In this document: positions 316-21,700 of the stretch, in pieces
Numbering within the stretch: the stretch's first letter is position 1
How the letters are laid out: the number at the start of each line of letters is the position of its first letter
Origin: an uncultured Christensenella sp.
GTDB lineage: Bacteria > Bacillota > Clostridia > Christensenellales > UBA1242
Direction of reading: 5' to 3'
Assembly (NCBI GenBank): GCA_964369125.1
Contig: CAYJEF010000002.1
Location: forward strand, 1 to 34,640
DNA: 34,640 bases
Notes under the pieces: model-generated
The model's input: only the letters and a program-made list of their open reading frames with translations
What the model was told of the DNA's origin: nothing
Databases searched by the model: none
Made by a program: the position numbers and the translations under genes

Positions 316-360
316 CTGATAAGGTGGGGGTCGGTGGTTCGAGTCCACTCAATCCTACCA
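316..360 (+). tRNA. Truncated tRNA-Ile(GAU): 3' half only (anticodon loop to encoded CCA). An att-type remnant, not a functional gene.
   Basis: The 45-mer ctgataa-ggtgg-gggtc-ggtgg-ttcgagt-ccact-caatcct-a-cca reads as: anticodon loop CUGAUAA (anticodon GAU at 318-320), 3' anticodon stem, 5-nt variable loop, complete T arm (GGTGG/TTCGAGT/CCACT), 3' acceptor strand, discriminator A, CCA. From memory, the core GGTCGGTGGTTCGAGTCCACTCA is the conserved bacterial tRNA-Ile(GAU) sequence (B. subtilis and E. coli type). The 5 nt upstream (gattt, 311-315) cannot pair with ggtgg (323-327). No GTAGCTCAG-type D arm exists anywhere in 1-315. Confidence 0.7.
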
Positions 361-368
361 AAATTCAT

Positions 369-399
369 AAAAAGACACTCCGTTTGGGGTGTTTTTTTT
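369..399 (+). terminator. Rho-independent terminator immediately after the tRNA fragment
   Basis: Stem acactcc (375-381) / ggggtgt (386-392), 7 bp including one G-U, with loop gttt. It is followed by a T8 run (392-399) and preceded by an A5 run (369-373). Confidence 0.7.
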
Positions 400-427
400 G
401 TGCGGTTTTATATTATTTGAAAAATCA

Positions 428-461
428 TTGACAGAAAGTATAAAGCATTGTAAAATATAAT
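428..461 (+). promoter_or_regulatory. Sigma-70-type promoter upstream of the zinc-ribbon gene
   Basis: Perfect -35 TTGACA (428-433), a 17-nt spacer, then -10 TAAAAT (451-456). An overlapping perfect TATAAT lies at 456-461, but with an overlong 22-nt spacer. This predicts a 5' UTR of roughly 110 nt before ATG 576. Confidence 0.55.
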
Positions 462-560
462 AAATTTTCTAGCAAGACGCAATTTTGCGACCTTGACTAA
501 ATTGGAAACTAATAAACCAAAATCTCCATTAGGTCTTTATGTTATCCATGAAAATTTTAA

Positions 561-566
561 AGGAGG
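561..566 (+). promoter_or_regulatory. Shine-Dalgarno site (AGGAGG) of the zinc-ribbon gene
   Basis: aggagg at 561-566, 9 nt upstream of ATG 576-578. Confidence 0.75.
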
Positions 567-575
567 ATAACATCA

Positions 576-740
576 ATGGAAGACAAAACTTTGGTATGCA
601 AAGATTGTCAAAGAGAGTTTGTCTGGACCGTTGGGGAGCAAGAATTCTATGCTCAAAAAGGTTTTGAAAACGAACCAACCCGTTGCCCAGATTGCCGTAG
701 AGCAAACAAACAAAGAAGACAAACAAACAGAAACAGATAA
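576..740 (+). CDS. Small zinc-ribbon domain protein (54 aa, CxxC-x25-CxxC)
   Basis: Hand translation: MEDKTLVCKDCQREFVWTVGEQEFYAQKGFENEPTRCPDCRRANKQRRQTNRNR*, with a strong SD and a promoter. There are two CxxC pairs (C8/C11, C37/C40) and the GEQEFY..KGF.NEP.RC..C signature. I recognise this signature from the widespread bacterial family annotated 'zinc-ribbon domain-containing protein' (Pfam zf-trcl-like; accession PF13451 from memory, unverified). It has a basic C-terminal tail. It is missing from the ORF track only because it is under 60 aa. Confidence 0.8.
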   Translation: MEDKTLVCKDCQREFVWTVGEQEFYAQKGFENEPTRCPDCRRANKQRRQTNRNR

Positions 741-751
741 GTAAATGTTTG

Positions 752-789
752 AAAAAAGTCATATGAGAAACCTCATATGACTTTTTTTT
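752..789. terminator. Bidirectional rho-independent terminator shared by the convergent zinc-ribbon and giant genes
   Basis: Perfect 10-bp stem gtcatatgag (758-767) / ctcatatgac (772-781) with loop aaac. It is flanked by A6 (752-757) and T8 (782-789). It lies 12 nt after the zinc-ribbon stop (738-740) and 3 nt after the giant-gene stop (793-795 on the minus strand). Confidence 0.85.
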
Positions 790-792
790 GTT

Positions 793-3700
793 TTAACCTA
801 TCAAATTAACTATCGCTTCCATAGACAAACCAAAACCTTGAAAGAATTTAAACATTAATTCTGCGGCTTTGACATATTTCTCGCTCTGTTGAACAATGGA
901 TAATGATTTGAGCGGTCCAAGTAATGAGCCTGATATTATGCCCTTGATGATGCTAGAAGCACGTGAAATCAATTCCATTTTCCTCCAGCCAGCGCCTTGA
1001 ACAATCCTTATATTATCCCGCCATTTGGAAATTTTGGTTGGCATAACCCAGAACAAAAATACGTTTGTAGTTTCCTCTGTGTATCCATTCCCTTCCATAG
1101 ATGCAACAACTAGGTCCCATGCAAATAGAATGCTTGAAATTATAATGCCACCTGCGCCATTCTTTTCCTCCTCTCTCATTGCGTCAATAAGGGGCTTGAC
1201 TTGCGTGTATAGTTGATAGTAATCTTGCATCTTTGGACTCATATCTTGCATAAATTCGAATATATTGCCTTCTTTATGCCACCAATCTTCCATTCTAAAT
1301 GCCGAGAGGTCAGGACCGACATTGTCGACTAATCCGTTTACTGTAAGGTCTGGCTTTAGCATCATCCACACGACTGGTATGTAGAACGGGATCTCGAATT
1401 TGCCTATTATTCCAAGATTTATTTTAATAGGCGAGTATTTGAAGTAAATTTCAAGCTCGGAATAGTAGTTTGCACGTGCTTCAACATAGGTGCGTGGATA
1501 GAAATTGATATATTTTATATTTTTGAAACTAGTGAGAATCAAGCGCGAATCGAACTTAAAAGAATATCCAAACCACATAGAACCCTCTATATTGCCGTTG
1601 AAAGTTGCTTTGTCATACACATCGCTGATGCCTTGCCTCGACGCCTCATAGTTGCCGTCTAGACATGAGGAACTGTCGAGGTATAACGCCAAAGAGTAGC
1701 CCGAATTTGGAGTAAGTTCTTCGCCAGCAATTCTGTCAAGGGCGCTTTGTCCCGCTTGTTTCACAGCACCACCGTTAAACTGCACGTGCGAACCATTTAT
1801 GGCGTAGATGCCGTCGTAGTACATAAATTTATCTCTGCCGTCACCTTGGGCACTGTCGTTTTTGAATTCTTGCACAATCGCATAGGCGCTGCTGGCTGGG
1901 ATAACCATATATTGCCTTGCCTTATTGTTTTGAATGACACCGTTGCTGTTTAAATTTATTGTTGAACCACTGGCATATATACCACCACCGAATCCACCAA
2001 AATCACCACTGCCTGTCGCTTTGTTCCCTCCGATGTTGCTATTAAGAACAAGGGTGGAGTTTAGCAAATACACACCGCCACCTGCCTCGACTGCAACATT
2101 GTAACTGACGGTGTTGAAACTGGAATTTGCGTTTGTCGTGCCACCTGTGCTAATTGTCAACGTGCCATTTGCGAAGTATATACCTCCGCCTTTATTTGCT
2201 TTGTTAGAGAAGTAAAGCGGTTTGCCATTTAAGTCGTGACCCATTCTGCCAATATTGCATTTTGCAAGCGTGACTGTGGTGTTTGGCGCGCCCGATACAT
2301 ATAGTCCGCCACCATTACCTGATGCCATATTGCTGACAATATCAAGCACAGATTCTTCTGCTCCTGTCTTGCCGAGGGTTAAGGATTTTGCGTAAATTCC
2401 TGTGTCAAAATACACACCACCGCCGTTGCCACCTGCATAGTTGAAGCCTATTGTTCCGCCGTCAAGGTTGACTGTGGCGTTTGGCGCGATATATATTCCG
2501 CCGCCGTTTGCGCCCGCATAGTTGGAGTAACTTAAACTGCTGGCGGTGATTACTTCATTGTCTGAGGTGTCTGTTATATCCACGCCTATTGTGCCAGATT
2601 TCAAGTCGAACTTGCCGACGACATACACACCTCCGCCGTTACCGCTTGCCGTGTTGGAATAAATCTTTGAGCCTGAAATTGCCCTCACATCGCCACCACT
2701 ACCCACATAAAGTCCCGCTCCGTTTCTAGACATATTATTTGTCACTTTTGCCGAGGAACCGAGGGTGACATTCCCAGCATTCACGAAAATTCCACCGCCG
2801 TCATCTTTCGCCAAGTTTGAACTAACGTAACCAGAATTTACAACTAAAATGCCCGAGAATACGTATATTCCGCCACCGTTACCTGTTACAGCATTGTTGT
2901 TATTTATGCCATAAACTGGATTGTCACCGACAAGAGTTAAATCGATTGTCAAAGTGGTTGTGCCACCGTCGATGGCAATACCTCCGCCGTTACCTGTGAC
3001 GCTATTATTTGAAATCTTCGTGTTTTTCATAAGAATAGTGCCCGTAGAGAACATTCCACCGCCTTGACTGGTAGTGAGGGTGGTTGATGTGCCTGTGTTA
3101 TTCACCACCAACTTTCCATTATTCTCTATCTTTGCATATTCTAGGACAAAGTCGGCGGAACTTCCCACAAACACACCGGCGCCTTTATAGGCGAAGTTGT
3201 TGTGAATGTCCGCTTTGATTGTTGTTTTTTCCTCGATTGCGCCAATGGTTAATTTTGAACTGTTCACATACAAGCCACCGCCCTCACCAGTAACGTTATT
3301 TGCTGTCTTATTGTTTTTGATTATGACGCCAGGCAAAATGTTTGCAAGGGAGTTTGTGCCAAGGTAGATGCCACCGCCTTGAATTGTAACAGAGTTTGAT
3401 GAAATCATAGCGTTCATAACGTTTAATCGTGGGACTGAGTCTGCCGTTCCGTCCGCGTAAATACCGCCACCTTTCTCGGCTGTGTTATCTGTTATTTGCG
3501 TGCTGGACACGTTGGAAGTGACACCACCAAAGTTAAACGTGCCAGAAAATACGAACACGCCACCGCCATTTATTGCACGGTTATTTGAAATAACGCCATA
3601 ATCCATATGAAGAGCATTGCTGTCACCCGCGACGTATAGCCCGCCACCGTCCACTGCATAGTTGTCTTGAAGTATTACGCCCGAGTAGGTTGTCGTCCCG

Positions 3701-6700
3701 CGCTCGAAGTAAATTCCGCCACCTTTGAGTGCGTTATTATTTTTTATTTGCACGCCACCTAGGACATATGACGAATAAAGAGTGTCGGTTGCGGTTAGAT
3801 ATAGTCCGCCTCCGTTTGTTTTTTCGTCGTCGCCATTATCATAAATTGCGCCAGAAGTTAAGTCAAGCGCACCACCTGCCACGTAAACTCCAGCGCCATT
3901 TACGGCTATATTTTGCGTGATTTGCGCTGAAATCTTATTCATTACAAACTTACCTGCACTATAAACGCCACCACCTGCAATGACGGCATCGTTATTTAAA
4001 ATTTGTCCGCCACTCATGGTGAACACTCCAAAATGATAGTCCGTAACTGAGGTGTTTATGCCAATAACTGCGACGCCTGCACCGTTTTGTGCAGTGTTTT
4101 CACTTATGACTCCACCCGTCATATTAAAGGTGCCAAAATGCGCGCGAGAAATGTTCACTGCGTCCACATACACACCGCCACCCTGTTCTAGCGCCGTGTT
4201 CATCGACACTTGCGAAGTGCCAGAAAGCGTTAGGATTGCTTTTGCGCCGACGTAGATACCGCCACCGTTTCCACTAGAACTATTTTCAGTTATGCTGACG
4301 GTCGACGTCAAAGAATTTATGTTCACTATGGACTGCTCGGCGTAGATACCGCCACCGCCGATTTCGGCGACGTTGAACGAAATTGTGCCCGCTTCAGCAT
4401 TAATTGTAGAAGCGCCCGCGCCGTAAAGTCCCGCGCCGAAAATTGCAATGTTCTTTGTGCAAAGAGCGTTTGAACTTAACATATTAAACACGCTAGTACT
4501 GTTAGTTAAATAGACGCCACCGCCGTTGTCCGCAACGTTGTGACTAATTTCGCCACCCGTCATATTCACCGTGCCACCGCCAACATATATGCCACCACCG
4601 TTGCCTCTGCTGTGGTTGACTGATGTCTCACCTTCCTCTATCACTTCAGTCGATTCGTTGCCTGTTATTTTGCCAGAAATTATATCAAATACTCCTCCAT
4701 TCATAAGCGCGACTCCTGCGCCGTTGCCTGTAGCGGTGACCTGCAATAATTTCGTGACTTTGTTGCCAAAGTTTTGCGTCGTGGTGCCGTCGCCCGAGGT
4801 TATTTCGTCGCCAATTCTACCTCCGTTAAGCACGAGATAACCGCCCGCAACGTAGACGCCACCGCCGTTTTGTGCCGTGTTTAAAATAATCTTCGAGGCA
4901 TTTTGCGTTCCTAAAATTTGCAGTTCACCACTTGCACTAACATACGCCCCGCCACCGTTTTCTTCTGCATTGTTCCCTGAAAGTATACTGCCGTTTGCAA
5001 CGTCTGCTATGCCCGCCACATATAGTCCTGCGCCGTTATTTGCTATGTTTTCGTAGAGTGTGGTGCCGTCGAGATCGACAGTGCCTGTGCTGTAAACTCC
5101 GCCACCGTTTTCGTTTGCCGAGTTTTTCCAAATACTGCTGTTTAGTAAGGAAAGAGCCCCCGCACTATATATGCCCCCGCCGTTATTTGCCGTGTTTTGC
5201 GTGATTTTGTCGATATTTTCCGTTACTATTATGCTAGAACTTATCGTGCCGTAAATTCCGCCACCATTAACCTTTGCCTCGTTGCTGGACACATAAACGT
5301 TGCTGCCAAGGGTCATTATTGCACTGTCGACATAGATACCTCCGCCGTTTGATAGAGCGTTGTTCCCGATGCTAAGCGCTTGGTTGTCGCTGACCTTAAG
5401 GTCTTCAAGTGATACGATGCCACTTTCGATATATATACCGCCACCCATATTTGCCGTGTTGCCTTTAATTGAAGTGTATGGATCATTTAAAGTCCCAGCG
5501 GACATAAGTTTTCCGGACGCAAGATATACGCCTCCGCCAAGGCTTGTTTCATTATAAGATATCTGAGAACCCAAAAGACGCACGGTGCCAAAATCAAGCG
5601 CACTTGAACCCGAAGCAGAATGGTTTGCTTGAATGAATATCGCTCCTTTGCTTGCGGTGTTTTCCGTAACTATTGACTGCCTGAGGTCCAAAGAACCGTC
5701 ATTTTTAACAGCGATAAGTCCGTTGCCAAAAGTGCTAGAAGATTTAACCGTGAGATTTTCCGCAGTGACAAGACCTCCAAGAACATTTAGTGCAGTGCCG
5801 TCGTTGCTACCTTTTGCCCCGTCAATCATCACGTTTGATATATTAACATTTCCGCTTATTACTTCAATTATACTGCTGGCGGTTGGGGAGATATTTCCAA
5901 AACTATCAATATATGGGATAAGGTTAAAGTTCATAATGTTGAGGTAAGAATTTGAACCAGTTAGCGTAATTCTAAACATATCGTCAACTGTGCCATTATG
6001 GAAGCGCTTTAACTCCGTCCCGACAATCAATTGCTTGTTCTCGTCAATATATCCCGAATTTATCGTAAGCATATATTCGCCACTGATATCAAGCGTCTTT
6101 TCCTTCGTATACATATCGTCCTTGAGCACAATTATAATAGACTCTACATTCTCATCAAGGCGAAGGAGCGCCGTTTCGATATCCATAAAGTATCTTGTGA
6201 CGTCGTTTGCAATTTTTGCGACGTTTTTCTCGCCAATAAGAACATTGAAATCGTCTATGATAAAGGTGTATTCTTCGCCACTTGAATCAAAGCCGACAAA
6301 CAACATTTCGTTTATCGTCGCAAGGTCTGTGATTGCGTTTGAATACATTGCTACGAGAGTGAGGTAGTCGGTGTGAGCATAATCTGTGGCGAGGTTCAAA
6401 GGCACATTGCCGTTATATCCGCCGTTTACATAGACGATTGAGTCACCCTCTATATAGACTTCGTCGGTTATGTTTAGATATGTAGAAATGTATGTCATTT
6501 GCCCTTCATTTAAGCCCGAACCAATGGTGAAATTGTGCGATCTTCCAGTAACAACATAGACGCCCGCGCCTTTGTTCACTGCCGTGTTGTTAGTTATGCT
6601 AGCGCTTTCAATCGTTACTTTCGCCCTATTTTCCATATACACAGCACCGCCGTTTGTCGCCATATTATTTGACAGCGTAACCGAACTGGAATTCTCGTCA

Positions 6701-9700
6701 CCTAGGGTCAAAATGCTATACGCATTAACATAAATTCCGCCACCTGACGTTGTTGTTACTGTGCCGTTTTGTGTGAAGGTCGCGTTTCTAGTAATTGTAA
6801 TAAGCGATTTGTGTGAGTATATTCCGGCGCCATTCGTTGCGTCATTTTGGGCAATGTGAGTGATTTTTGTGCCGTCGATATGAAGTTCCACACCTGTTAC
6901 ATACAGTCCGCCACCAAGTCCCGCACCAACGCTTGCTGTGTTGCCCACAATAGTTCCTCCAAGAAGAGAGACCGCTGTGTTGTAACCCTCGGCGTATTCG
7001 TCTGCCGTGGTGGTGTAACCTGTTACATACACGCCACCGCCCATGCCCGACATATTGTGGCTAATTTCTCCGCCATACATACATAGAACGATTTTGTCTC
7101 CAAAGGATTTTTGCGAATTTGCTACGAAATTATATGTGTCCTCCACGTATAAACCGCCACCCGACGTGCCTGCGAAGTTATAGGAAATGGCTACTGTGTC
7201 GCTACCGTTTTTGTCAATAATCACTTGAATTGGGTTTGAGGCAGCCGCTGTTATGGTGCTCTTTGCATAGATTCCGCCACCACTAATGCTCGCGTAGTTG
7301 TATGCAATCTTCGCGGTGCCACAAATGTCGACAGTGGTGCCGATAGCGTAAATTCCGCCACCGTATCTTGCCGTGTTTGAGTAAACGCTTGTCGTGGCAA
7401 CAGTGGATTTTGTGCCGTCTCCGATGATTCCTCCGCTAATTTCAATAACGGACGATGGACCGCAATAGACTCCACCGCCATATTTTGTGGCAAAGTTGCC
7501 GGAAATGACGCCACAGGTCATATAGAACGCGCCACTATTCGTTACATACACGCCACCACCATTGCCGTTTGTGGACTCCATATCGTCACTGACAGAGCGG
7601 TTATTTGAGATTTCCCCGCCTGCTAGATAAAGCGTTCCTTGCACTAGTGCCGCTGCGCCGTACCATTCCGTCCATTCCCTCGTAAGCGTAACCCCGACCC
7701 CCAGCCAAAGGGTGGCATTTCGGGCAATGTTTATGAGACGAGAGGAGGAATTGTGCACGTCAAGCGTGGTGGAATTGCTCTTGCCACCTTGAATTGTTAT
7801 TGTATTGTTTTCGTAGTCTGCGCCACAGAATTGAAGATATGCCCTCTCAAACGCAGGATTCATACCAATATAAAGGGTGTCGCCAGAAAGAATGTTGAAC
7901 ATTTCACCCTCAAACTCGCCCGCCTCCGTCCTGCCACGAAGCAAAGTAATTTCAGTTTGTTTTGCGGAAAGGGTGAAAGATTTGTGCGTTCCGCTGTAGT
8001 TTGAATAAAGCGTTTCGTATACTTCGTAGACGTTATTGACACTGCCTGTGACGTTTATGAAGATAAGCCCGCCGTCGTCAACGAGAGATAGTGCTTCTTT
8101 TAGAGTTTCGGTGCCATATGCCAGTTCGTATGTCTCGCTCGCGCCCGAACCGACCGCTCTAACCACTTGGAAATATTGTGCGCGCAAGACGGCGAAATTA
8201 CCCTCACCACGCATGTCGCTTTGACCAAGCAAGAACCCAGACGCAACAGGCAGAGTGATTTGACCAAGCAAACTATTTTGAACACCTTGTGAGCCCGAAA
8301 GTGAACTCGAAAGCACGGCGCGAAATACTCGGTCGCCTAGCATTTTTCCACTGACGCCCAAGGTAACACTACGCACGGAGCCGTCGAAAAGGTTGACGTC
8401 CGCTATGTCAATGGTGCTTTCTTTGACGTTTAGATATGCGTCCTTGCCTGCAATTAAAATGGTGTCAATGAGGGCGTCACTTTGACCCGCGAGTGTGAAT
8501 AAATTGTGCTCGTCGCTGGCAATTTCTGTGCAAATTGCGCCGGAGTTTATGCTAGTAGTTGGATTTTCAAAATAGCATCTGCCAAGCACGTTCACGACTC
8601 CGCCCGTGTGGTATATTCCAGCGCCGTAGACGTCCACGTCCGTGACCGCCGTAATTGTGTTGTTTAACACATTGATACTGGTCATATCCACATTTGCCCC
8701 GCCGATATATAACCCCGCACCGCGTTTGTTTTCCATTGTTGTTGCGTCTGTTGCGTTTATGACATTATTTGTAATCGAGCAAGAGCCCGTGGACATATTC
8801 GCGTAACCGCCAATTAGGTGCAAGCCAGCGCCAGCGCCAAACGAGGTGTTCCCTGAAATGTCGCATGCGACTTCGTTATATTTATATAGGTATAGCGTGC
8901 CAGAATCTTGATATATTCCGCCACCAAAACTATTTGTGGTGTCTAGAACTCTATTTGAAAGCACGCTCGTAGCATAGAGATTGACGACGCCACCGGACGT
9001 GATATATAACCCACCACCTGTGGAAGCAATATTGGAGATTATTTGCGCTTTATATATGTCTATAATACCGCCAGAGATATACAATCCACCACCCATTTGC
9101 GCTGTATTTTGTGAAATTTCGCTCATATTTTGTTCTATATCCACGCGCGCTTTGCCCCTAACTATGCTTATTGCCCCACCGCGAGTGGTAGTTTTGTGCG
9201 AAGAATCGGGCAATGTGCCTGTGCCGTTTGACGAAATTATTGAACTTTCGACAACGAGGTTATATTCATTACTAAGCATATTGCCGTCAAGGTGAATTGC
9301 TCCGCCCGTTTGAGCATAGTTGCCAGTCATCGCGGAGAAAGTAACTCTTACCATACTGTCGCCAGAGAGTTCAAGCGCTCCGCCAAAACTGTATGCTATG
9401 TTGTCACTAAACTCACAACTCGTGATGTTTAATGTGCCTTTTGACACAGAAATTGCTCCGCCATTTTTCGCGAAATTATCTTCAAAATTGATGCTTGTAA
9501 TGGTGCTTGTAACTTGTGAATTGTTTGAAATTGCCCCGCCACGAACTGACGCACTATTGTTAATAAAATCCGTGCCACTTATAATAATTTGTCCCGCTTC
9601 GTTGTGAATGGCTCCGCCATTTTCGGCGACGTTTCCGCTAAATATAGCACGCTTACTTACGTTCTTTGAAATCTCTAAAATGCCGGAATTGACATAGATT

Positions 9701-12700
9701 GCCCCGCCGTCTTTTTGGGCGACGTTTTGATAAGACAACATTTGTTCGTCATATATGCCATATTCGCCACCATACAACTCCACTTTGCCGTTTTCAACGT
9801 ATATTGCCCCGCCGTAAGTCGCACTGCACGCATAAATCTTGGCGCTGACGATTTTTAGGGAGAAACTTAAGGAATTGTTTGCGTTCACATAGAATGCACC
9901 GCCCCTGTTGCCATCGATGGTCTCAATTACTCCCGTGTTTGGTGTGACGAGTTGCAGTTTGCGCGTGTTCGTCGCGTTGTTGCCAATAATTTCCACGCCG
10001 TCATTTACGACAGCAATACCCGTGGCACCAATATAAACGAGCGAACTGGCGTTATTAACAGCGCCTCCCGAGATAATAAAGCCCATATTCAGCATTTGCG
10101 ACAAGGATTGCGCGGAGTCAAGGTTAAATTCAATGCGCCCATACACTGCAAATAGTACGCCCGTATACAAACTATCGCGCGTAATGCCATATCCCAGTTG
10201 CGTGGCGCCAAACACTGGCGATTGTGAGGATACTATAACCACGTCTTTGTCCTGAGGCACGATCACAACAGAGTTTTCGCCAATAACTTGCTCGTCAAGC
10301 AATTTCAAAATTCGCCTTTCATTGCTTGGAATTTGCATAATTGCATCTTTTAGTGTGGTGTAATTTTCAGGTTTGCTTTGGTCGGTTATGTCGACGACGG
10401 TCGCCCTGCCCACATATACATTTGTGTCAATGAGTGTAAACCCAACGCCGATGCCAAAGAATTTCGACACGCGGGCGTAACTGCTTCGTGTGAAAGTCGC
10501 CACCAGCGTGCGATCGTTTGCCAAATAATTAAAGTCAAACGCCAGCATAATTCTTGGGCTAGTTTCCAAAGTCTTGTCGATGATTGTTACAAGAGAATTT
10601 TCCACCAAACACACCATATTTCTTGCGGTTTCGTCGCTAAAATCAATCTCGGTGGAGTTTGAAATGGAAAGCGCATTTGGCGAAGTGTTGTTTAAAAACA
10701 CTCCCGAATATTTGTCTTGGTCCACTTCGGACATATTATGCGAAATCGTAACAGCGTCCAAAATGACCGCCGCTGTGTTCGTAATGTAGATTGCACCGCC
10801 ACGACCTTTGGTCGCAACGCCAGCTATATCTTTTGCAATATTATTTTCTATTGTGGCGTTCAAAATGGTTAGGTTTGTGTTCACATACAATCCTGCGCCA
10901 GTCGCCGCCGTATTATCAAAAATTCTCGTGTTGTTAAACATTGTTATGTTTGGCGAATTCCCGAAAGTGTCGGTCGTGAAATATACGCCACCACCCTGCG
11001 CTCCCGCGTTGTTATAAGAAATCTCGCAACCGTCGAACCTCACCACCACCGAACCGCTGACAAACACGCCTGCGCCAGAACTCGCGGAGTTTTCTTGTAT
11101 CGAAGTAAAGCGAGACAAAGTCACTTGTGCTGTGCCCGACAAATATAATCCACCACCAAGATTACTCGCTTCGTTGCCTGCCATGGTGCCCCCAATATAC
11201 GTCCTTGGCGAAGTCATACCGATTTCTATATTTCCGCCCATTGCGTGTAAACCGCCACCGTTTCCACCCACTCCGTTTTGGGCAGTTGCTTTATTAGAAA
11301 ATATGTTTGCGCCAGAGATATACGCTTCGCCGTCTTCCACATAAACTCCACCACCACTCACGCTTTCATTGCCAGAAATGGTTGTGCCAAGTTTAATGTT
11401 TAACACTCCGCCAGCCATGTAAATTCCACCGCCAAAGTAGGCGACGTTGTTTAGAATGAACAGTGAATTACCACTTAAGTTGACAAGTCCACTTTCAACG
11501 TAGATTCCTCCGCCAAAGTTGCTTTCGACACTACTATTGCCATATTCAATGCGCCCCATAAGCACATTTGAAGCGCCCCAACTTTCCATAATTTGCGAGG
11601 CAAAATGTATATTCCCGCCAAATTTTGCAGTGTTGCTGGATATAGTAGCGCGCGCGTCGTTCATTTTTAAAATCCCACTGGCGCCCACATACACACCACC
11701 ACCAGCACTAGTTGCCTCGTTGCCTATTACTGGCATTCTAAGGTCGTTTAGTTGCGAGTTTCTCGTTTGCATTCCAATGGTCGCGTTTTCAATTAAAAGT
11801 GTTCCGTTCATAACCGCCACGCCACCACCGTTTGTGGCTACGCTGGAATAGATTAGGGCGCCACCGTGAAGTTTCACAAATCCGTCACTTATGAATATTG
11901 ACCCGCCCGTTTGTGCTTGATTGTTAAAGATTTCGGCAGAAGAAATGTCCACGCAACTGCCCTCGTCCAAAATGCCAGTGCCGACAAATATTGCCCCGCC
12001 ATTTATAGAGGAGTTCGAATGGATATACACACTGCTCGTGTCTTCGTTTATGACAAGGCGACTGCCCGTATCCAAATATATTGCGCCACCGTTTTGTGCA
12101 TAGTTTCCATAAATTTCGCCACCTTTTATGGCGACTGTGCTTGAATTTGCGTATATCGCACCACCGTTAATAGTCGCAGTAGTATCTCCGTTGTCGTGAA
12201 GAACTGCACCCGTTATCGTCAGCGTGCCATTTTGAACATATACCGCACTGCCAGCAAGCGACTTTGTGTTAAAGATAAAAACATTTTGACTTAGGGTTAA
12301 AGTGCCGGAATTAACAAAAATGAAACTGTCGCCAGTAATCCCGTTGCCGTCAAGGTTGAGCATTGGCGATTTGTATTCCACACCGCGTGCCGTGCCAAAC
12401 GTCCCGCCAAACGTCACGTTATGCGAGACAACTTCAAACACATTTCCCGTAAAGTTTTGGTCCCGAAGTATGGTGATTTCTCTGTCGTTATAGGAATAAC
12501 CGTCTTGACCTTCGCGTAAAGATTCGTAGCCTGCAAGGATAGTGACGTCCTTGTCGACGATAATCGTATCGCTTATAGTTATATTATGTTTAATCATAAT
12601 ATAGTCGCCGACAGTGCTGGAATAAAGCGCCAGTTCGATTGTCGAATGGTTTTCCACAAATTCTTTATCAGCGTTAAACCTTGCAATAATATCGCTAACA

Positions 12701-15700
12701 ACAATGTTGTAGTTTAGGTAAATTCCAGAGAGCGATACATAGAAATTCACGTCGGTGACAACGTATGAAGTCGTGTCAGGTTTCTGCAAAATATTCGTGC
12801 CGTTTATGACTGCGTTAAACGCCATTGTGGAATATATCTCGGCAAACTGCAGAGTAGAACTATAAAACGCCGTGACATTAACCCCAAGCACCGTTCTTGG
12901 CAGGATAACAAACACCACGTTAGTTCCATATAGCGCTTCTTCGGCAATGTTTTCGAGTGCGTCAAAATTAATTTCGTCTGGCAAATTTATGCAATTATAG
13001 AATGCTTGCTTGCCGATGGTCTTTAATTTTTTAAACTTAAACTCACTTTGTAAGCTTTCAAACTCTAAGTTTGTGCAATTATAGAACGCGCGCTCGCCCA
13101 CTTCATCTATTACTTTTGCAAAAATTATGCTTGTTAGCATAGAGCAACCTTCAAAGGCGCTTGCTTTCACTTTAGTTTCTAGCCTTATAGTCACTTTGAC
13201 TAGTGCGGTTGGCAGTTTAGAAAGTCCGCCAAAACTAAAGGCAAAATTGTTCGAGTCGTTTATAGTCTCGCCCACGTAAGGCAAGGAGATTTCGGTGAGG
13301 TTTGGCATATTCTCAAACGCCGACGCCTCTATTCTCGTAACAAGATTACTGCAAAGCACGCTAGTAAACTCTGTGCCATAGAAGCAAAGTGATGAAAGCG
13401 CCGTTATATTGACGTTATTTCTCGCAATATTAACCATAGACATTTCGTAGGCGCCGAGGATAGAGTTTGCTATCAAATAGGTATGCAATTTCACGCCGTT
13501 TGACAAGTCATAGAAATTGCCGTCCTCGTCCGTTTTATATCGTGTGTTTTGTGGTGAAAGCGTTACAGTTGTTAGATTTGTATTAACTAACGCCCCTGCT
13601 TCGACTACGGTATCTTTTGGAATATTTAGCACGCTATTTAAGTTTGTTAGGTGCCTGAATGCAAACTTTGAAATTGACACAAGATTTGCCATACACTCTA
13701 AATCGACGCTTGTTATGTTGCTTAGTTCGTTGCAGTTCTCCAACTCGCCAACAATTGTAATTGCACTGCCGAGAGTTACCGTGTTATTCGCAAAATTTAA
13801 AATATATCGAGGCAGGATAAGTTCTGAATTTGCGCTGATTTCGCTCTTTCCAAGCGCGCTGAGCCCTGTTATCGTAGTGCCGGAATATTCAAAATAGAAA
13901 GGATTAGAATATTCACGCCACACGGCGTATAAGGTGATTTCTCCGCTAAATTTCACCGCGTTTTGACCATTTACATTTTGAGGGGAAGTAAACTGCGCTT
14001 CGTTTGCGGTGCTTAAAAGCGCCCAGCCCATAAATAGCGCGAATACGTTTTCCTCCCTGTCGGCAACAAACCACTCTTTGTTATCCTTATCGGCAAACGC
14101 GAGCGCCGTTTGTGTCGATAAATCCAAAACCGCAGTCGTATTCGTGCCGTTTGGCAGGATTTGCGTCGTCGACCCTCCGATTATGTCATACGAAGTATTT
14201 AGGTCATATGTTATGGAATATGAAGCCGTCATCACGCCATAAAGCGTGATAGTGTCGTTCACAATAGCCTGATTTGTGATAATACTGGCGAACTTTGCCA
14301 TTGATAATGTGAACACTTCATTGAGGGTGCAATCTATTGTCGAAAGATTGTTTGAGAATGAATATCCCACTAGCATATATTGTGCATTACGGTTACCGTG
14401 GAGCGTTATTTGCGTCGTGGCACCGATGCCATTGTATGTGTTTGTGGCGCTACTCGATACCGTGACGGTTTGGATTGTGAAATTTGCGTCAATTTGGTTG
14501 TTTATCATATATTTTATCGTGTAATTTTTTGCGCGCCATGCCACGAAAAGTTCCAAAACACCAATATCTTCGTCTTTTAGGTTCAAACTGGCAATGCCCC
14601 CGAAGTTGAACATTAGCGCTCCAGTGGTAGAAATATCAGCAGTTTTGCTCAAATATCCCGCCTCAAACCCAGCGACGCCAAAGCCCGCAGAGACAATGTC
14701 GGCGGTAGAAATGACGACGTTGCCGTCTATGTCGCAAAAGTTTTCGAGCGTGAAGTCGCTACCGTCGTTTGAATGGACGATTACTTTTCTATATTCCACG
14801 ATTGCATAGAGTTTTATTATAACATTATCTTCTGCGGTTAGATTTAGTATGGTATCTTGGTCCAAAAATTCTGGTTCGGTGGCGAGTGGGTCGGTGCTGG
14901 TTGTCCACCCTTTGAAATACTTTTGGTTGCCAATTTTGAGCACTCTTTCTCTTATATCTGTTGGGAAATCTGCCACCGCTGGCAAATATGAGGAGGTGTT
15001 ATATTCCATTCGAACTTCTTCGCCGAGGTCATTAACGCTTGTTGGGTTGGCATAGAGTTTCACTGTATATTTGTTTGCTTCCCAGTCTGCATAGACTGTC
15101 ACTTCATCGCCTATCGTAAGATTTCTGGCAGTTTCTCCCAAAATTTGCTCGCCCAGTTTCCACGCCACTTGGTGATATCCCACTGCTAAAAATTTATCGG
15201 TTGGTAAGTTGAAATATTCGCCATATGTAACCAAAATGCTTGAAATTTCGCCAGTGATGGCACCATGTGAGAAGTTTGGTGCAAAATTAACTGTATATTG
15301 CCTTGGCGTCCAGATGCAATAGAAATCAAGCACTGTATTGTCCGTTATAGCAAGGTTAAATACACGCTCGCCAAATCCATATGTAGTGCCCGTGCCATCG
15401 ATAGTCGTGTTCCAACTGTCCGCAATGTAGCCCGCGAGGGTAAACTTCGTCTTTTCTGCCATAAATGCAAAGGTGTCAAACAGCGCTGTTACCTCGTGAG
15501 TTGTTTGTGTTACTACCCCCATATAATTTGAGTGAAATATCATTGTGTAGGTTATCGGCGCCCACGAAGCATATAGGATCGTATCGTTTTGTGGCATTTT
15601 GAATGTTAGTGTGGTTGCGTCATACACATTAGCGCTTGCAATTTGCGAAGCCGAAACCCCGCGCAATGTGTAGCCCGCACGTGTTAGGTTCGCCATAATG

Positions 15701-18700
15701 TCGAATATAACTGCATTTCCAAACGTGGAAGTTTCGTTGTCGGCAAAAATTTCCACCACAATTTTTGAACCGTCAATGTAGGTGTAATATTGCGACGAAC
15801 TAGACAAAATTGCCTTATTCCCGCTCATTCCAGCGGTGTCATTAAAGTCCACAGTCAAAACAAAATATTTCTTAGACCAAATGGCAATTGCCGTAACATC
15901 TTCATAAGGCATCAATATATCCGTCAATTTGTCGCCGTCTGCCGTGGCACTGCTATTCCATTCAATAAAATATTTATTGCGCTGACTGACGGAAATTTTC
16001 TGCTCGCCGTTTAAAAGTGACAAAGCAGTTTCGAACCTTGATAATATGAGAGATAAATCATATAGATATTCGATTTCTATGATAATATTCCCCGCCGAAA
16101 GTGTGACATTCATTCCCGAGAGTGCGTTATATAAAGTCCCGTCGTTTGCCGAGATAGTCAATGTAAACACTGCCTTTTGAAGAACAACATATTGGTCGAT
16201 GACCTTTACACGGAAATGGTTAGTGCTTTGTTCTTGCTTGTAACTGTCATCTACGTCAAATAATCTGGCGATTGGTGTAAGGTTGCTTGCAAATTTCACG
16301 ACGTTAACCTTCCCGCCAGCGATAACTGGGGCATAATCCGTCAGTTCCACCACCACTTTATCGTTGTTCGCGTCGATAACATCGTTTACATAAATAATCG
16401 CACCGTTTTTGAGAATAATTCTGTCTGCAATAGCGTATCTGCCCGAAAGGTAAAGTTCGCCGGCGATAACTGTATTGTCCACATAAATCGTGCCAACATA
16501 TGCACTGCCACCTATAACTCCGCCAGAAATTCGAACAATTCCAGCAGATATATTAGACGTAATATATACGTCACTGCCCAGCCCGCCTTCGGTGTTTTCG
16601 TTTGCAAATATTGACCCTCCACGCTGATTAAACGTGCCTCTAAACACACAGACCCCGCCACCATACGTTGCCGTGTTGTTTTTGATTTCGCCAGTTGTTA
16701 AAACGACAGAATGTTTGGAATGAGTGTTTTGATTGTCGCCCACACACACGCCACCGCCATATGTCGCCGAGTTGCCCTTAACGACCACGCCGTTTATGTT
16801 CGCAACAACAATGGTATTCAAGTTACTGCCCTCCACGTAAATCCCGCCACCATAAATTGCGGAGTTGCCAAAAATATTAAACGTGGTTTCTGCAATGATT
16901 CCTGCGCCAAACGTAAACGTCGCGCAGTTTGCCGACAAATACACACCGCCACCTGCGCTCGATGCCGTGTTTGTGCTAATAATTCCGCCTGTCATTTTGC
17001 TATTACTACTGCTACTAAAATAAACACCTGCGCCCTTAATTGCGCCGTTACCTATAATTTCTCCGCCTTGCATTTCAAACGTGGACGACGCCATATATAC
17101 GCCACCGCCGTTAACCGTTGCCGTATTCCCGTTTATTTTTGTTGAGCCCTTAATTATAAGCGTTCCCGCCAGATATATTCCAGCGCCGTTTTGCGCCGAG
17201 TTTGCGCTGATTTCCCCGCCGTTTAATGTGCAAACACCCGCGGATTTTATGCCACCGCCATTTGACGAGGATGCGTGGTTAATAATCTTTACCCCCGTGC
17301 CTATGGTTAGGTTTCCGTTTGGCATAACATACACTCCAGCGCAATTTGTTAGTATATTATCGCCGTCGATAACGAGGTTGGCTGGCGAAGTAATTTCCAC
17401 CTGCGCGCCTATCGACAACATATAGTCGCTAAATGCACCCATTCGCACTAGTCGAACGTCGGCAATGCTTGTGAGAGTGATATTTCGTGAAATGGTTATG
17501 TTTGAGTATATCTCAATGTTGCGTTTGACTATAACTAGAGTGTCGCCGTTTACAAGAGCGTTTGTGGCGTCTGTCAAGTTTTGATAATACACAAAACGTG
17601 GTTCGTTTACACTGGCGCCCGTGGAAGGTTTCCTAATATATGCGACTGTTTCCATCCATTCGCAGTGCAATTTAATGTATGTTATGTTGCTTATCTTAAT
17701 TGAAGAATTGCTGTCGTTATACTTTTCGTCAATTGCCCCGTCAAACACTCCGTCGTCGCCCGTGAAGAAAGAGAGAACAATGTGGTTATCACGTTTGAAA
17801 TCATCTATGAAGATTATATAGTCGACGAACAAGTCCTTTTGCAAGACAGTGTAAATCCACGTGTTTTGTGGGTCATCTCCCGCGATTCTATCGTATGGAC
17901 TGTCTATTAAATTGCTAGTTATCCCGCCGTTGGCGTCAATTTCAATAGTAACTTGTGTCCACGAAAATATACCCTCAAAATATAAATTACTGCCACCCTG
18001 CGCAATAATGAGGTTAAAGACCTCGGCATAGGTGTATATCACTCCGCCAATTTCCGTGGTTCTCGCGATGTCGTCCATATATTTTAACTCAAATCTGTGG
18101 GCGTTATTAAAGGTTATACCCGTATGAACCATACCGCTTGGTGAAAGATAGGAAAGTTCCCATTCCACAAATGTGCAATATCTCATCGTTGGTGCAGTTA
18201 ACACTATTGACCCAGTAAATCGCAAGTACCCAAGGTCGGTCGTAACCGTTTGACCGCTAGAATTTTCATAGAATGAAAACACATTCACCACACGCTCTAC
18301 CCACAGAGGTTTTAGCGTCAAAACTTTGACAGGAAGCAGACTGTTTGCGGTGTAAATTTTATTTTTACTGTCCACAAACTCTCCGCTCATTTCATACCCA
18401 ATTCTAGTGCCAAAAATCTCACTTAGTGTCACAAAATACGTTTGAGTTGGGTCGATTGCCACTTTAAAGCGTTTGAAGTTGCCGTTCGCGTCATATTCCG
18501 CCACGTAATTTACTTGCGAGCCAAATGTTATTTCTCCGCCATTTTTCTCAAGATAGAAATATTCCGCCACTTTTGCGATATAGAGTGTACAGTCTGTTTC
18601 GTTGTAGTCGAGGCAATAGTTTCCAAGCACGCCTGTGTCGATTATGTTTAAGACAAAATATTCTTTGCAGTTTTCAAGTATGCTTATGTTTGCAAACTTC

Positions 18701-21700
18701 ACAACCTCGTCGTTTTCCAGTTTTTGTTTGAGTTCCAAGTCTTTTGCACCGATGTAATTTATTGTGGATTTTTCCGTGCCATATCTCACATTCGTTAGAT
18801 TATTATCCACGCGAATGACGGAAAATCTCTTCACGTAAATGTCTTTTACGTATGCCGTACCCGACAAAACTAGAGTGCCCTTTTCATTAGAATACGAGTC
18901 TTCCACGCTGGAATTTATGCCAATAGTGCCCAAAATCACACCAGACGCAATTTCAAGTGTGGCGTTTTTGTCGATGTAAATTTCTTCGCCCAACACTTCG
19001 GTCGCGAGGTTTGTTTGATAGCCTGCATTGGTCAAAATGACGTTTTCAGTAATCTCCACTCCGTTTAAGGTAAGTTTTACAGAGGACGAAGACATATATA
19101 TTGCAGCGCCCGCCTTGCCCGCTTTGTTGCGATATATCTTGCCAGCACCCAATGAACTATATACGTTTACAGTGGCAAAATATAACCCTCCACCGCCGAA
19201 ATATGCTTCGTTCTGAGTGATTTGTGCACCGCTGGACATCGCAATTTGACTGTTTCCCGCCAGATATATTCCTGCGCCAGAAGTGGCAATATTGTGCATA
19301 ACGCGCGCGTTATCGCCCAAAATTATGCTGGAATTGCCCGTTGCATATATGCCCGCACCCGCCACCACTTCGTTTCTTATAACGATTGCGTCAAGAATTA
19401 GCGTGGTATTATTTATGTAAATTCCGCCACCACTGGTGTTGCCAACGACGTTTTTGCTGTAATTCATTTCAATTATTGTCCCGCCCGAAATGTTCAAACT
19501 GGAATAATTTGTGAGCGAGGTGGTTACGTATATTGCACAGCCTTCATATGCCGTGTTGCCGTTTGAAGTGGAACCCATACCAAACAATACGTCGGCGATA
19601 TTTACCACCGCGTCTATGGCATACACTGCACCACCAGAGGCGTTTGCACTGTTGCGAATGAACAAAGTGTTTTCGCCAGAAGCACAGTTTTCGCTATTGA
19701 TGTTTAGCACGCCCATAGCGTAGATTGCTCCGCCGTTTTCGCTAGAACTCGTGTTTGCCTCAAAACGCCCAGATTTTATGACGAGGTTTGTTTGGCTGTA
19801 GATAGCGCCTCCTTTTTGTCCCGCCGTATTCTTAAGGAATATCTCGCCAAATAAAATTTCAAGTTTGCTTGTGGCGTAGATTGCTCCGCCTACTGTTGCA
19901 AAATTGCTTTCAAAAGTTGGCTTGTTTTGTGAATTTTGTGACAGCACAAAATTGGTTCCCAAATATAACGCCCCGCCGTTTAACGTCGCCGTGTTATATG
20001 CAAACAAAGTGTTCCCAAGAATAATGTCGCTTGCGAGCGCATAAATTGCCCCGCCAGAGTTTGCCGTGTTGTAGATAAACGAATTTTCGCCAAAAAGCGT
20101 AATATGCGCGTCTGCTTCGGCATAAATTGCCCCGCCGTTTAACGTCGCCGTGTTTCCTTGAGACGCCGTGCCAAATAAGCAACTTGTCACTTGCACATTA
20201 GCAGAACTTTCCACATACAACGCACCGCCAGATTGGGCGGAGTTATTGATGAAAGACACGCCTGAAAAGTTTGCAGTGCCTTTGACGGTAATCGCCCCGC
20301 CGTTTCTGCTACTTTGCGCCGTGCCACCCACAATATTAATGCCAGATATTTCCAAAGTTCCGCCGGCTTCCACCTTTATAAGGCTGACATTTCGCGTCAC
20401 AAACGTGCCGTCCAAATTTCTGGCGTTCGACAGGGTGTAAGGTATCCCGCCATTTAAGCCTTCGCTTAGGGTTAGCATACCCCTTGATTTCACCGTGAAC
20501 ATTGTGAAATTTGCACCAAGTCCACTGCCCGGCGAGACGGTGAGACCACTGTTAACCGCATAAATAGCAACATTATCGCTGATATCCACTTGCGTATTTA
20601 CAACAACGCTTGTTAAAATCTTCACGACATATCTTGCAGGTTTAACGTTATAAATTTGTGCGTTAATGTCATCGAACGCAGCATTAAACGACGTATAGTA
20701 AACGTTATAAAATCTATTGTTATATCTCACAACATTTTCCACATAGCACACCGCTGGACCCCACACGGCATAGAAAGTGGTAACGCCCGTGGAAGACTCT
20801 ATTATTGTAATTTCTTGCCCAAGGCTAAAATCGGGCGCCGAAGCATTTGGCGTGCGTGCGAAGCCTAATAGCACTGAATTTTGCTTGTAGAAAAATCTTT
20901 CGATATTGTCGTAAGGCGTCGACGAATATGAGTTTGGCAAAACGAGTTTTGTCCCGACGCTTTTCGTTATGCTAAATGTCGTGCTACCGTCCGTTCCTCC
21001 GTTTGCATCAAAGACCACTTCAACTGACATTTTTGTAAAGTAAATGGTCACATAAATACGTCTGTCGGCGGTGTTTGTGTTTGGATTGGTTTTTATTACA
21101 GTAATCTCTTGATTTGGCACATAAATATTCCCGCCCAAAACATATTGCTTGAAATAGAAGCCATCTGGACGATAATTTTGTCGCAAGTAATATTTTAGAG
21201 AATTGTATATGAAGACATATTTCTCATTTTCGACGGTAATGTTGAGTGTAACAGTTGTATCGGCGTCCGTAAAACTTATACTTTCAGGGTATATATTTGC
21301 ATCTTTATACGCGTCGGCATTGTTTAGTGCCATATTTGGTTTAGAAAACACCGTGAATGCTTTTGTACCAGTATCAATATAATATACAAGACTATCAGCG
21401 GTGGTATAGTAATATTTATCGCGGTTTGCGTCGAAGTAAATATCTGATTCCTCATATGTGGTTTGTTTGTCTACCACTCTTATTGGGACAGAGCCAAGAT
21501 ATGTCACAGTCACGTCCTCATAATGCACAAACTCCACACTGCTTAGTGTGCTTGATTGTGGCAACCTAAACGTCTTGCCATACTTGACGGTTTGAGATAG
21601 TAAAAGCAAGTTGTCGTCCGTCAGTTGTCTGCCGTCGATAGAGTAGTATGTCGTGCCGGGATATCTGTCGAATACGGTGTCATATTGATAGTAGACCGTG

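What the first reader, a model, noticed from the sequence alone, without database searches (positions are those of the whole stretch)
796..1647. Unassignable 284-aa C-terminal tip domain with hydrophobic segments, at the end farthest from the membrane anchor
Seen: from E10890 onward all repeat grammar disappears. The domain starts with aromatic-rich, beta-strand-like stretches (MWFGYSFKFDSRLILTSF; YYSELEIYFKYSPIKINLGIIGKFEIPFYIPVVWMML). It continues with a charged helical-looking stretch (QDYYQLYTQVKPLIDAMREEEKNG) and a 21-aa hydrophobic segment (GAGGIIISSILFAWDLVVASM, nt 1096-1158). A second short hydrophobic stretch (TNVFLFWVMPT) and an amphipathic Ser/Gly/Ile/Leu tail follow. It has no LPXTG, no choline/GW/SLH-type wall-binding repeats, and no terminal aromatic residue as in autotransporter or OMP barrels. 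I recognise no toxin or enzyme motif in it. Inference: the N-terminus is the anchor, so this is the distal functional tip. It could be a receptor-binding or target-membrane-inserting module, or a second membrane anchor that would make the protein a giant loop. It is the least explainable part of the gene.
Basis: partly seen in the sequence, partly recalled or inferred. Interest (0 to 1): 0.7.

Follow-up and report, generated by a model that had tools for sequence, protein, structure and literature searches.

The report
Novel end domain of giant surface protein
The last ~266 residues of an 11,173-residue surface protein are a real, selectively maintained domain with no known relatives except one orthologue in a Christensenella genome, and that orthologue shows its "membrane-like" hydrophobic stretch is probably a buried helix, not a membrane anchor.

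Summary
The tail is real. Nt 796-1647 (-) encode the last 284 aa of an 11,173-aa ORF with an N-terminal membrane anchor, and every quoted string and coordinate checks out. The frame has 0 stops against about 20 expected. Beta-helix-type similarity actually runs to aa ~10907, so the unique part is about 266 aa. It has four long amphipathic beta-strands followed by a helical region. Pfam, NCBIfam, PHROGs, PDB, 5.8 billion clusters, 1.84 billion representatives, genome, metagenome, viral, plasmid and phage collections gave nothing. Following the neighbouring zinc-ribbon gene found one syntenic orthologue in an uncultured Christensenella MAG. The body is 54% identical and the tail 34% (pairwise E 1e-52), almost without indels. 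Second codon positions are conserved while third positions are saturated, and Trp, Tyr, Gly and Asn are preferentially kept. So it is a constrained, fast-evolving, lineage-restricted domain rather than a degenerate tail. The 21-aa hydrophobic segment is marginal (about +3.5 kcal/mol on the Hessa scale, against -3.0 for the N-terminal anchor). In the orthologue it becomes amphipathic (LGPALEGVKLALDIILALM), and the glycine zipper is lost. A second anchor or membrane-inserting module is therefore disfavoured. No immunity gene follows. Best reading: a soluble distal end domain, a beta cap plus a helical bundle, probably for binding. Its function remains inferred.

The parts
793..34314 (-). Giant ORF of 11,173 aa with an AAGGAGG ribosome-binding site upstream. 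It contains Listeria-Bacteroides repeat domains, BspA-type LRR and several Pmp-like beta-helix blocks.
   Evidence: A colinear orthologue (51.9% identity over 3276 columns) is.
34126..34191 (-). N-terminal signal-anchor helix (aa 42-63, ILLAVISVLVVTFGIVFGVMMF) after a K/R-rich 41-aa N-terminus. It is the only strong transmembrane candidate in the protein.
   Evidence: KD19 2.91, Hessa sum -3.0, Wimley-White octanol -9.8.
1975..1989 (-). Last canonical GGGIY rung of the beta-helix (aa 10776-10780).
1594..1947 (-). Transition zone (aa 10790-10907) with degenerate rungs (YYDGIYAINGSHVQFNGG, SLALYLDSSSCLDG, VYDKATFNGNIEG).
   Evidence: BLAST alignments from unrelated beta-helix proteins end at aa <=10907. 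Identity to the orthologue is 45.8%.
1345..1593 (-). Beta subdomain of the unique tail (aa 10908-10990), with about four long amphipathic strands. Conserved motifs: GSxWF, YINxYPxTY, ANYYxE, INLG, PVxWM.
   Evidence: Periodicity p about 0.0005. Identity to the orthologue is 42%, with codon position 2 identity 0.78. Low-confidence AF2 models show strands here.
796..1344 (-). Helical subdomain of the unique tail (aa 10991-11173). Conserved motifs: VNG, AFRxxDWxHKxG, YQxY, TNxxLxW, WxDNIR, GWxKMxL.
   Evidence: Identity to the orthologue is 25-34%.
1267..1302 (-). AFRxxDWxHKxG motif (aa 11005-11016). It contains the only His of the tail, which is invariant in the orthologue.
1096..1158 (-). The 21-aa hydrophobic segment GAGGIIISSILFAWDLVVASM (aa 11053-11073). 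It is read here as a buried or amphipathic helix with a conserved mid-helix Asp.
1039..1065 (-). Second short hydrophobic stretch NVFLFWVMP (aa 11084-11092). The orthologue has NAILIWI-E.
1006..1023 (-). Conserved WxDNIR motif (aa 11098-11103).
751..788 (.). Bidirectional intrinsic terminator hairpin, starting 5 nt after the stop codon (793-795) and shared with the convergent gene.
   Evidence: It is conserved in L001.
576..740 (+). Convergent 54-aa zinc-ribbon gene (zf_Tbcl). It served as the synteny anchor that located the orthologue. It shows that no same-strand gene follows the giant ORF.
   Evidence: PF13451, E 7e-25.

Best explanation
The tail is a folded, soluble, extracellular end domain of a cell-anchored giant beta-solenoid fibre. 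So far it is seen only in a Christensenella-like lineage. The protein is inserted by its N-terminal signal-anchor, and about 11,000 residues are exported. After the last beta-helix rungs fade out (aa ~10790-10907), a roughly 83-aa subdomain of long amphipathic beta-hairpins closes the solenoid. A roughly 180-aa helical bundle follows, and its core helix is the 'hydrophobic segment'. This module sits at the end of the chain farthest from the membrane. It most likely acts as the contact or binding tip, for cell-cell or cell-glycan adhesion. It evolves faster than the stalk but keeps its aromatic, Gly and Asn core. Shown: it is coding, conserved, under purifying selection and unrelated to known families, and the hydrophobic helix is not conserved as a membrane segment. 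Inferred: the fold, the extracellular location, the cap role and the binding function.
For: It is real coding sequence. A syntenic orthologue, L001, comes from an uncultured Christensenella sp. MAG. It has the same convergent zf_Tbcl neighbour (90% aa identity) and terminator, and it aligns colinearly over 3276 columns at 51.9%. The tails align with E 1e-52 at 35% identity. They are 33.8% identical over 266 aa with only 5 gapped positions. Codon-position identities in the tail are 0.45/0.66/0.38. Position 3 is as saturated as in the body (0.36), so the tail is under purifying selection. Conservation is concentrated in W (6/8), Y (9/14), G, N and the single H, as expected for a folded core or binding surface. 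Beta periodicity has p about 0.0005 and helical periodicity p 0.037. AF2 secondary structure agrees, though at low confidence. The only strong transmembrane segment is N-terminal. Related beta-helix proteins carry the opposite layout, with a signal peptide and C-terminal LPKTG. This protein therefore needs another end module. Giant adhesins anchored at the N-terminus with functional C-terminal regions are an established pattern, for example RTX adhesins (own knowledge).
Against: There is no structural model: pLDDT is 37.9 for the tail alone and below 50 for most of the tail in context, and the fold search was empty. No homology links the tail to any binding domain. Only two sequences are known, so conservation statistics are thin. 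The window copy does have an unusually apolar helix and a GxxxGxxxG motif. N-terminal anchoring, as opposed to signal-peptide cleavage, is inferred from sequence only. The tail is less conserved than the stalk, which also fits relaxed constraint.
Confidence: 0.5

Rival explanations
1. Purely structural terminator. The tail only caps the last beta-helix block and prevents edge aggregation. It has no ligand or activity of its own.
For: The beta subdomain adjoining the solenoid is the best-conserved part of the tail (42%, codon position 2 identity 0.78). AF2 in context continues strands to about aa 10966 at pLDDT 50-61. No functional motif was found.
Against: About 180 further residues of conserved helical domain are more than a cap needs. 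The six internal beta-helix blocks end in a different, shorter module, and an HMM of that module does not match the tail. Conserved polar motifs (DWxHKxG, WxDNIR) suggest a site.
Confidence: 0.18
2. Cell-envelope re-attachment module. The tail binds the producer's own wall or membrane surface non-covalently. In that case the protein lies as a loop, or it stays attached if the N-terminal segment is cleaved.
For: Other giant Gram-positive proteins use C-terminal non-covalent wall-binding domains, for example the SH3b-like ends of the Apilactobacillus Giant1-5 proteins (PMC12863079). The window tail ends in a cationic amphipathic stretch with net charge +7.
Against: There is no hit to SLH, CWB1/2, GW, LysM, SH3b or WxL models. 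The positive charge is not conserved: it is +1 in L001, and the whole L001 tail is -12. The N-terminal helix has no evident signal-peptidase site (by reading).
Confidence: 0.14
3. Membrane-active tip or second anchor. The hydrophobic helix pair inserts into a membrane, either the cell's own (giant loop) or a target's (an ionophore or pore like the CdiA-CT helical ionophores).
For: The segment is the second most apolar 19-mer of the protein on the KD and Hessa scales. It has KD 1.84 and Wimley-White octanol about -4 (hand sum over the 19-mer, not a tool output). It is followed by a K/R-rich stretch. A glycine zipper GIISGSLLG is present. CDI ionophore C-terminal regions are likewise two-domain, with an entry domain plus a five-helix bundle carrying a glycine zipper. 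They diverge to 20-39% identity (PMC11630599).
Against: The Hessa sum is +3.5, so the segment is not predicted to insert. A conserved Asp sits mid-helix. The orthologous segment has E, K and D (Hessa +8.0), and no KD>=1.6 window exists in the L001 tail. The glycine zipper is not conserved. There is no small hydrophobic immunity gene. The giant ORF is followed by a terminator and a convergent gene in both genomes. The 77-aa antisense ORF is absent from L001. Homology falls gradually rather than at a cassette boundary.
Confidence: 0.1
4. Degenerate or relic tail with no function, for example decayed repeats or read-through sequence.
For: It is the least conserved part of the gene (34% against 54%). 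There are no homologues beyond one lineage.
Against: It is retained colinearly with almost no indels while synonymous sites are saturated. Position 2 is much more conserved than position 3. W, Y and G are selectively conserved. The amphipathic periodicity is strong. Codon use is native.
Confidence: 0.04

Closest known systems
Pmp-like / right-handed beta-helix repeat surface proteins (Chlam_PMP PF02415, Beta_helix PF13229, NosD PF05048), including LPXTG-anchored ones of Bacillota
   Same: The stalk that leads into the tail is built of GGxIY-type rungs. 708 such proteins match the last 968 aa at 26-32% identity.
   Different: Their similarity stops at aa <=10907. Chlamydial Pmps end in an autotransporter barrel. 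Many Bacillota relatives have a signal peptide plus C-terminal LPKTG. This protein is anchored at the N-terminus and ends in an unrelated alpha/beta domain.
Giant RTX/T1SS adhesins (LapA, MpIBP, SiiE type)
   Same: They work alike in layout: an N-terminal retention or anchor, a very long repetitive stalk, and functional modules near the C-terminus, distal from the cell (own knowledge).
   Different: No RTX repeats, T1SS signal or homology were detected. The envelope and the export route (Sec signal-anchor) differ.
CdiA-CT alpha-helical ionophore toxins (PMC11630599)
   Same: Both sit at the C-terminus of a filamentous beta-helix protein. Both have a two-part layout ending in a helical bundle. 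The window copy has a glycine zipper. Both diverge rapidly.
   Different: There is no demarcation motif and no downstream hydrophobic immunity gene. The apolar helix and the zipper are not conserved in the orthologue. The organism is a Bacillota-type bacterium.
Apilactobacillus kunkeei Giant1-5 proteins (PMC12863079)
   Same: They are very large extracellular proteins of a gut-associated Bacillota bacterium. They have beta-solenoid parts and a conserved C-terminal end domain.
   Different: Those have a cleaved signal peptide and DUF5776/SH3b-like, positively charged wall-binding ends. Here no such model matches, and the charge is not conserved.

Membership tests
Sortase (LPXTG) cell-wall sorting signal | An LPXTG-like motif, then a hydrophobic stretch and a K/R tail, at the extreme C-terminus | tested here: not met
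   Regex over the last 320 aa finds none. No Gram_pos_anchor or TIGR01167 hit at E<=1. The hydrophobic segment lies 100 aa before the end.
Autotransporter / OMP beta-barrel domain | PF03797-type barrel of about 12 amphipathic strands with a C-terminal aromatic residue | tested here: not met
   No Pfam hit. There are only about 4 strands followed by helices. The window protein ends in ...NLIG. L001 ends in F, but within a helical stretch.
Second transmembrane anchor (bitopic stop-transfer helix) | A segment of at least 19 aa with insertion-competent hydrophobicity, conserved as such in orthologues | tested here: not met
   The Hessa sum is +3.5 in the window and +8.0 in L001. KD is 1.84 against 1.58. 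E, K and D are present in the orthologue. DeepTMHMM was not available.
Polymorphic toxin C-terminal domain (CdiA-CT/Rhs/LXG-like) | Abrupt loss of homology at a demarcation motif between otherwise similar proteins | tested here: not met
   Identity declines gradually (54, 46, 42, 34, 25-30%) and the tails remain homologous.
Polymorphic toxin C-terminal domain (CdiA-CT/Rhs/LXG-like) | A cognate immunity gene immediately downstream on the same strand | tested here: not met
   A terminator and the convergent zf_Tbcl gene follow in both genomes. The antisense 77-aa ORF is not conserved.
Non-covalent wall-binding modules (SLH, CW_binding_1/2, GW, LysM, SH3b, WxL) | A match to the family profile, usually in repeated copies | tested here: not met
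   Zero Pfam or NCBIfam families at E<=1 for both the window tail and the L001 tail. There is a single WDL tripeptide only.
Pmp-like beta-helix repeat | GGxIY / FxxN rungs spaced about 25-35 aa apart | tested here: not met
   For aa 10908-11173 there is no motif, no alignment from 120 repeat proteins and no self-similarity to the body. The feature is met upstream, up to aa ~10907.
Internal beta-helix cassette-end module of the same protein | Similarity to the six '..VKFxNxS..' block ends | tested here: not met
   The HMM of the six modules scores the tails below shuffled controls.
Any solved fold | A confident model with a significant structural match | tested here: inconclusive
   pLDDT is 37.9. 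Foldseek against the PDB gave 0 hits at E<=0.001. The orthologue could not be added to the alignment.

The most novel reading that the evidence does not exclude
The tail is a new contact-dependent, membrane-active tip. In this reading it would be a monoderm counterpart of the CdiA helical ionophore or entry-domain arrangement. Its beta subdomain would dock on a partner cell (another bacterium, or the archaeal partner of Christensenella). Its apolar helical hairpin would insert into that cell's membrane. Self-protection would come from topology rather than from a linked immunity gene.
Probability: 0.06. Interest if true: 0.8.

Novelty: new variant of a known kind. Interest (0 to 1): 0.35.

Why it matters
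The stalk of this protein is made of common repeat types, and the tail is the only part that could give it specificity. It defines a domain family with no match in any curated profile library or among about 1.8 billion representative proteins. Only two members are known, both apparently from Christensenella-like gut bacteria. Christensenella species form dense flocs that host Methanobrevibacter smithii (PMC7002349). The surface molecules responsible were not named in the passages read. A giant fibre anchored at the N-terminus with a conserved distal end domain is a reasonable candidate, and this makes a concrete, testable target: delete or block aa 10908-11173. The link to flocculation is speculation, and assigning the window to Christensenellaceae rests on one neighbouring gene and one orthologue. 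For genome scanning, the practical lesson is that a hydrophobic 21-mer in a single sequence was misleading, and that synteny recovered an orthologue that every sequence search missed.

Tried and rejected
Searches with the tail found nothing:
- Sequence searches: PDB phmmer, Pfam, NCBIfam and PHROGs, and the 5.8-billion-cluster word search.
- Exhaustive phmmer against 1.84 billion representatives.
- Genome, metagenome and viral contig scans with the single sequence and with the two-sequence alignment.
- Plasmid and phage tblastn, and a PDB profile search with alignment A1.

Other searches:
- The N-terminal 500 aa have no orthologues in the protein database.
- An exact look-up of the neighbouring protein found no contig.

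Structure:
- AF2 on the single sequence gave pLDDT 37.9.
- AF2 in context with 43 beta-helix relatives folds the stalk but not the tail.
- Foldseek on the weak model gave no hit.

Ideas rejected:
- The tail as out-of-frame or foreign DNA.
- The tail as a diverged copy of the internal cassette-end module, or of any body segment (best E 4.8).
- The 77-aa hydrophobic ORF 529..762 (-) as an immunity gene. It is the antisense of the K/R/Q-rich end of the zf_Tbcl gene and is absent from L001.
- The single WDL as a WxL domain.

A literature search found no description of giant Christensenella surface proteins.
Full report
**What is there.** The window is almost entirely one gene, an ORF at 793..34314 on the minus strand encoding 11,173 aa. 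A strong ribosome-binding site, AAGGAGG, precedes it. The frame has no stop in 284 codons. The other five frames have 12-28 stops, composition-matched shuffles average 19.7, and P(no stop) is about 1.5e-9. Synonymous codon choice in the tail (-1.126) lies within the spread of the body (-1.101 +/- 0.043). The lower GC (39% against 44%) comes mainly from amino-acid composition. The tail is therefore genuine native coding sequence. It is not an out-of-frame or foreign fragment.

**Context in the protein.**
- The only strong membrane segment is N-terminal: aa 42-63, KD 2.91, summed Hessa scale -3.0, after a K/R-rich 41-residue N-terminus.
- The body carries a Listeria-Bacteroides repeat domain, BspA-type LRRs and many Pmp-like GGxIY rungs between aa 3388 and 10776.
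- A search with the last 968 aa returned 708 beta-helix repeat proteins at 26-32% identity. None covers more than 66% of the query, and no alignment passes aa 10907.
- The repeat grammar therefore fades through degenerate rungs between aa ~10790 and ~10907. It does not stop at E10890, and the truly unique part is about aa 10908-11173 (266 aa).
- Several of those relatives have a signal peptide and a C-terminal LPKTG anchor, which is the opposite topology.

**Anatomy of the tail.**
- Residues 10908-10990 show a highly significant two-residue amphipathic periodicity: mean moment 0.451 against 0.213 +/- 0.055 in shuffles, p about 0.0005. This indicates roughly four long beta-strands.
- Residues 10991-11173 show weaker helical periodicity (p 0.037). 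Low-confidence AF2 secondary structure agrees.
- The 21-aa hydrophobic segment is real but marginal. Its KD19 is 1.84, while clearly extracellular stretches of the body reach 1.68-1.99. Its Hessa sum is +3.5, with an Asp in the middle.
- The window copy also has a GxxxGxxxG motif and a cationic stretch after the hydrophobic pair.
- No LPXTG, PEP-CTERM or terminal aromatic residue is present.

**Homology searches.**
- Searches with the tail gave nothing in Pfam, NCBIfam, PHROGs and PDB sequences, or in the 5.8-billion-cluster and 1.84-billion-representative protein collections. Genome, metagenome and viral contigs, plasmids and phages were also empty.
- The N-terminal 500 aa also lack orthologues in the protein database.

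**Finding an orthologue by synteny.**
- The convergent neighbour of the giant gene is a 54-aa zf_Tbcl zinc-ribbon gene (PF13451, E 7e-25). I used it to fetch 80 loci.
- The best locus, L001, comes from an uncultured Christensenella sp. MAG and shows 90% identity for the zinc-ribbon protein. It has the same arrangement: zinc-ribbon gene, shared terminator, and a convergent giant ORF that runs off the 10-kb flank.
- That ORF aligns colinearly with window aa 7888-11127 in one alignment at 51.9% identity. Its tail is homologous to ours, at 35% identity with pairwise E 1e-52.
- None of the other 79 loci has the tail.

**What the orthologue shows.**
- Identity falls gradually: 54.2% in the body, 45.8% in the transition, 42.2% in the beta subdomain and 25-34% in the helical part. 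There are only 5 gapped positions in 266.
- Third codon positions are saturated in both tail and body (0.38 and 0.36). Second positions remain conserved (0.66 in the tail, 0.78 in the beta subdomain). The tail is therefore under purifying selection.
- Conservation is concentrated in Trp (6/8), Tyr (9/14), Gly, Asn and the single His. Short motifs stand out: GSxWF, YINxYPxTY, ANYYxE, INLG, PVxWM, AFRxxDWxHKxG, WxDNIR and GWxKMxL.
- The hydrophobic segment aligns with LGPALEGVKLALDIILALM (KD 1.58, Hessa +8.0). The helix is more amphipathic there (moment 0.36 against 0.19). The Asp is conserved, and no 19-mer of the L001 tail reaches KD 1.6.
- The glycine zipper and the positive charge of the last 80 residues (+7 against +1) are not conserved.

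**Interpretation.**
- The data fit a folded, soluble, lineage-restricted end domain. A beta-hairpin subdomain closes the solenoid, and a helical bundle follows whose core helix happens to be especially apolar in this copy.
- Given the N-terminal anchor, this domain is the far end of the exported chain. By analogy with N-terminally retained giant adhesins, I commit to a distal contact or binding tip as the most likely role (confidence about 0.5 for the whole statement). The binding function itself is inference.
- A purely structural cap, a self-envelope re-attachment module and a membrane-active tip remain as rivals, in decreasing order.
- The membrane-active or ionophore idea is attractive. 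CdiA helical ionophores also have an entry domain plus a helical bundle with a glycine zipper, and they diverge to 20-39% identity (PMC11630599).
- Three observations count against it. The apolar features are not conserved. Homology declines gradually rather than at a cassette boundary. No immunity gene follows in either genome.
- On the last point, the 77-aa hydrophobic ORF just downstream is the antisense of the Lys/Arg/Gln-rich end of the zinc-ribbon gene and is absent from L001.
- A degenerate relic is essentially excluded by the conservation pattern.

**Limits.**
- No usable structure could be obtained. pLDDT was 37.9 for the tail alone and below 50 for most of the tail in context. The orthologue could not be added to the alignment, and Foldseek found nothing.
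- Only two sequences are known. The orthologue's N-terminus was not retrieved, and no dedicated transmembrane predictor was available.
- Assigning the window to a Christensenella-like organism rests on one neighbouring gene and one orthologue.

**Verdict.**
- The 'distal functional tip' reading is supported as far as sequence can support it.
- The 'membrane anchor or inserting' reading is disfavoured.
- The tail is an undescribed domain on a known kind of protein.
- Interest is moderate to low, unless the tip turns out to mediate Christensenella flocculation or partner contact (PMC7002349).

Noticed in passing
window 316-399 (+): The 3' half of a tRNA is present: anticodon loop CTGATAA (GAU, Ile-like), T-arm GGTTCGAGTCC, and an end at ...CCTACCA. 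A hairpin and T-run terminator follow. The 5' half is missing and ARAGORN finds no tRNA. The above-threshold Rfam hit to HPnc0260 (322-464, minus strand, 62.6 bits) is driven by this tRNA end. Synteny with the Christensenella locus begins only at about nt 492. The fragment may therefore be an att-like remnant of an integration or a rearrangement breakpoint.
   Followed up: partly
window 529-762 (-): A 77-aa ORF with a very hydrophobic N-terminus starts 31 nt after the giant gene's stop, inside the terminator hairpin. It is the antisense of the K/R/Q-rich end of the zf_Tbcl gene and has no counterpart in L001. It is probably spurious and is not an immunity gene.
   Followed up: yes
window 751-788: A 17-bp-stem hairpin flanked by an A-run and a T-run serves as a bidirectional terminator for the convergent giant and zinc-ribbon genes. 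It is conserved in L001, which has an additional hairpin before the giant gene's stop.
   Followed up: partly
window 793-34314 (-), aa 4025, 5204, 6005, 7938, 8663, 9321: The giant protein looks like a concatenation of at least six beta-helix cassettes. Each ends in a similar non-repeat module ('..VKFxNxS..'-type). Four of them are followed within about 50-500 aa by a cap-like [YF]xx[FL]xxA[ILFM] motif (aa 3247, 4540, 5280, 7985), with Listeria-Bacteroides-type domains and a BspA LRR block interspersed. This suggests growth by cassette duplication.
   Followed up: partly
window about 22450-22750 (-), aa ~3860-3960: A strongly acidic, helical-looking insertion (…DELDNSEMGEDDESLDEALAIGLLQLETARDNAISDINTDATLSPEQKSVAIKAVNDDYEAGCAQLTAEIERRKAEG…) interrupts the first beta-helix block. 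It was seen in the translation and not analysed.
   Followed up: no
L001 147-2418 (-): In the Christensenella MAG the left neighbours of the zinc-ribbon gene are a GalE-like epimerase and a protein with many 'NIGMYAA'-type repeats (read by eye). The window instead has AT-rich non-coding sequence and the tRNA fragment, so the flank is not syntenic.
   Followed up: no
window 34400-34640: The right end holds an AT-rich intergenic region. On the plus strand it then has an open stretch (…FVELEDEDDFPQEVNGLVAMKLSAHHKHPTLLGRLNSEG) with no obvious start. It may be a gene fragment running out of the window (read by eye).
   Followed up: no
whole window / databases: Neither the giant protein nor its 54-aa neighbour is present as an exact or close sequence in the large protein and contig collections. 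The one orthologue sits in an unannotated TPA MAG. This explains why protein-level searches missed it.
   Followed up: yes
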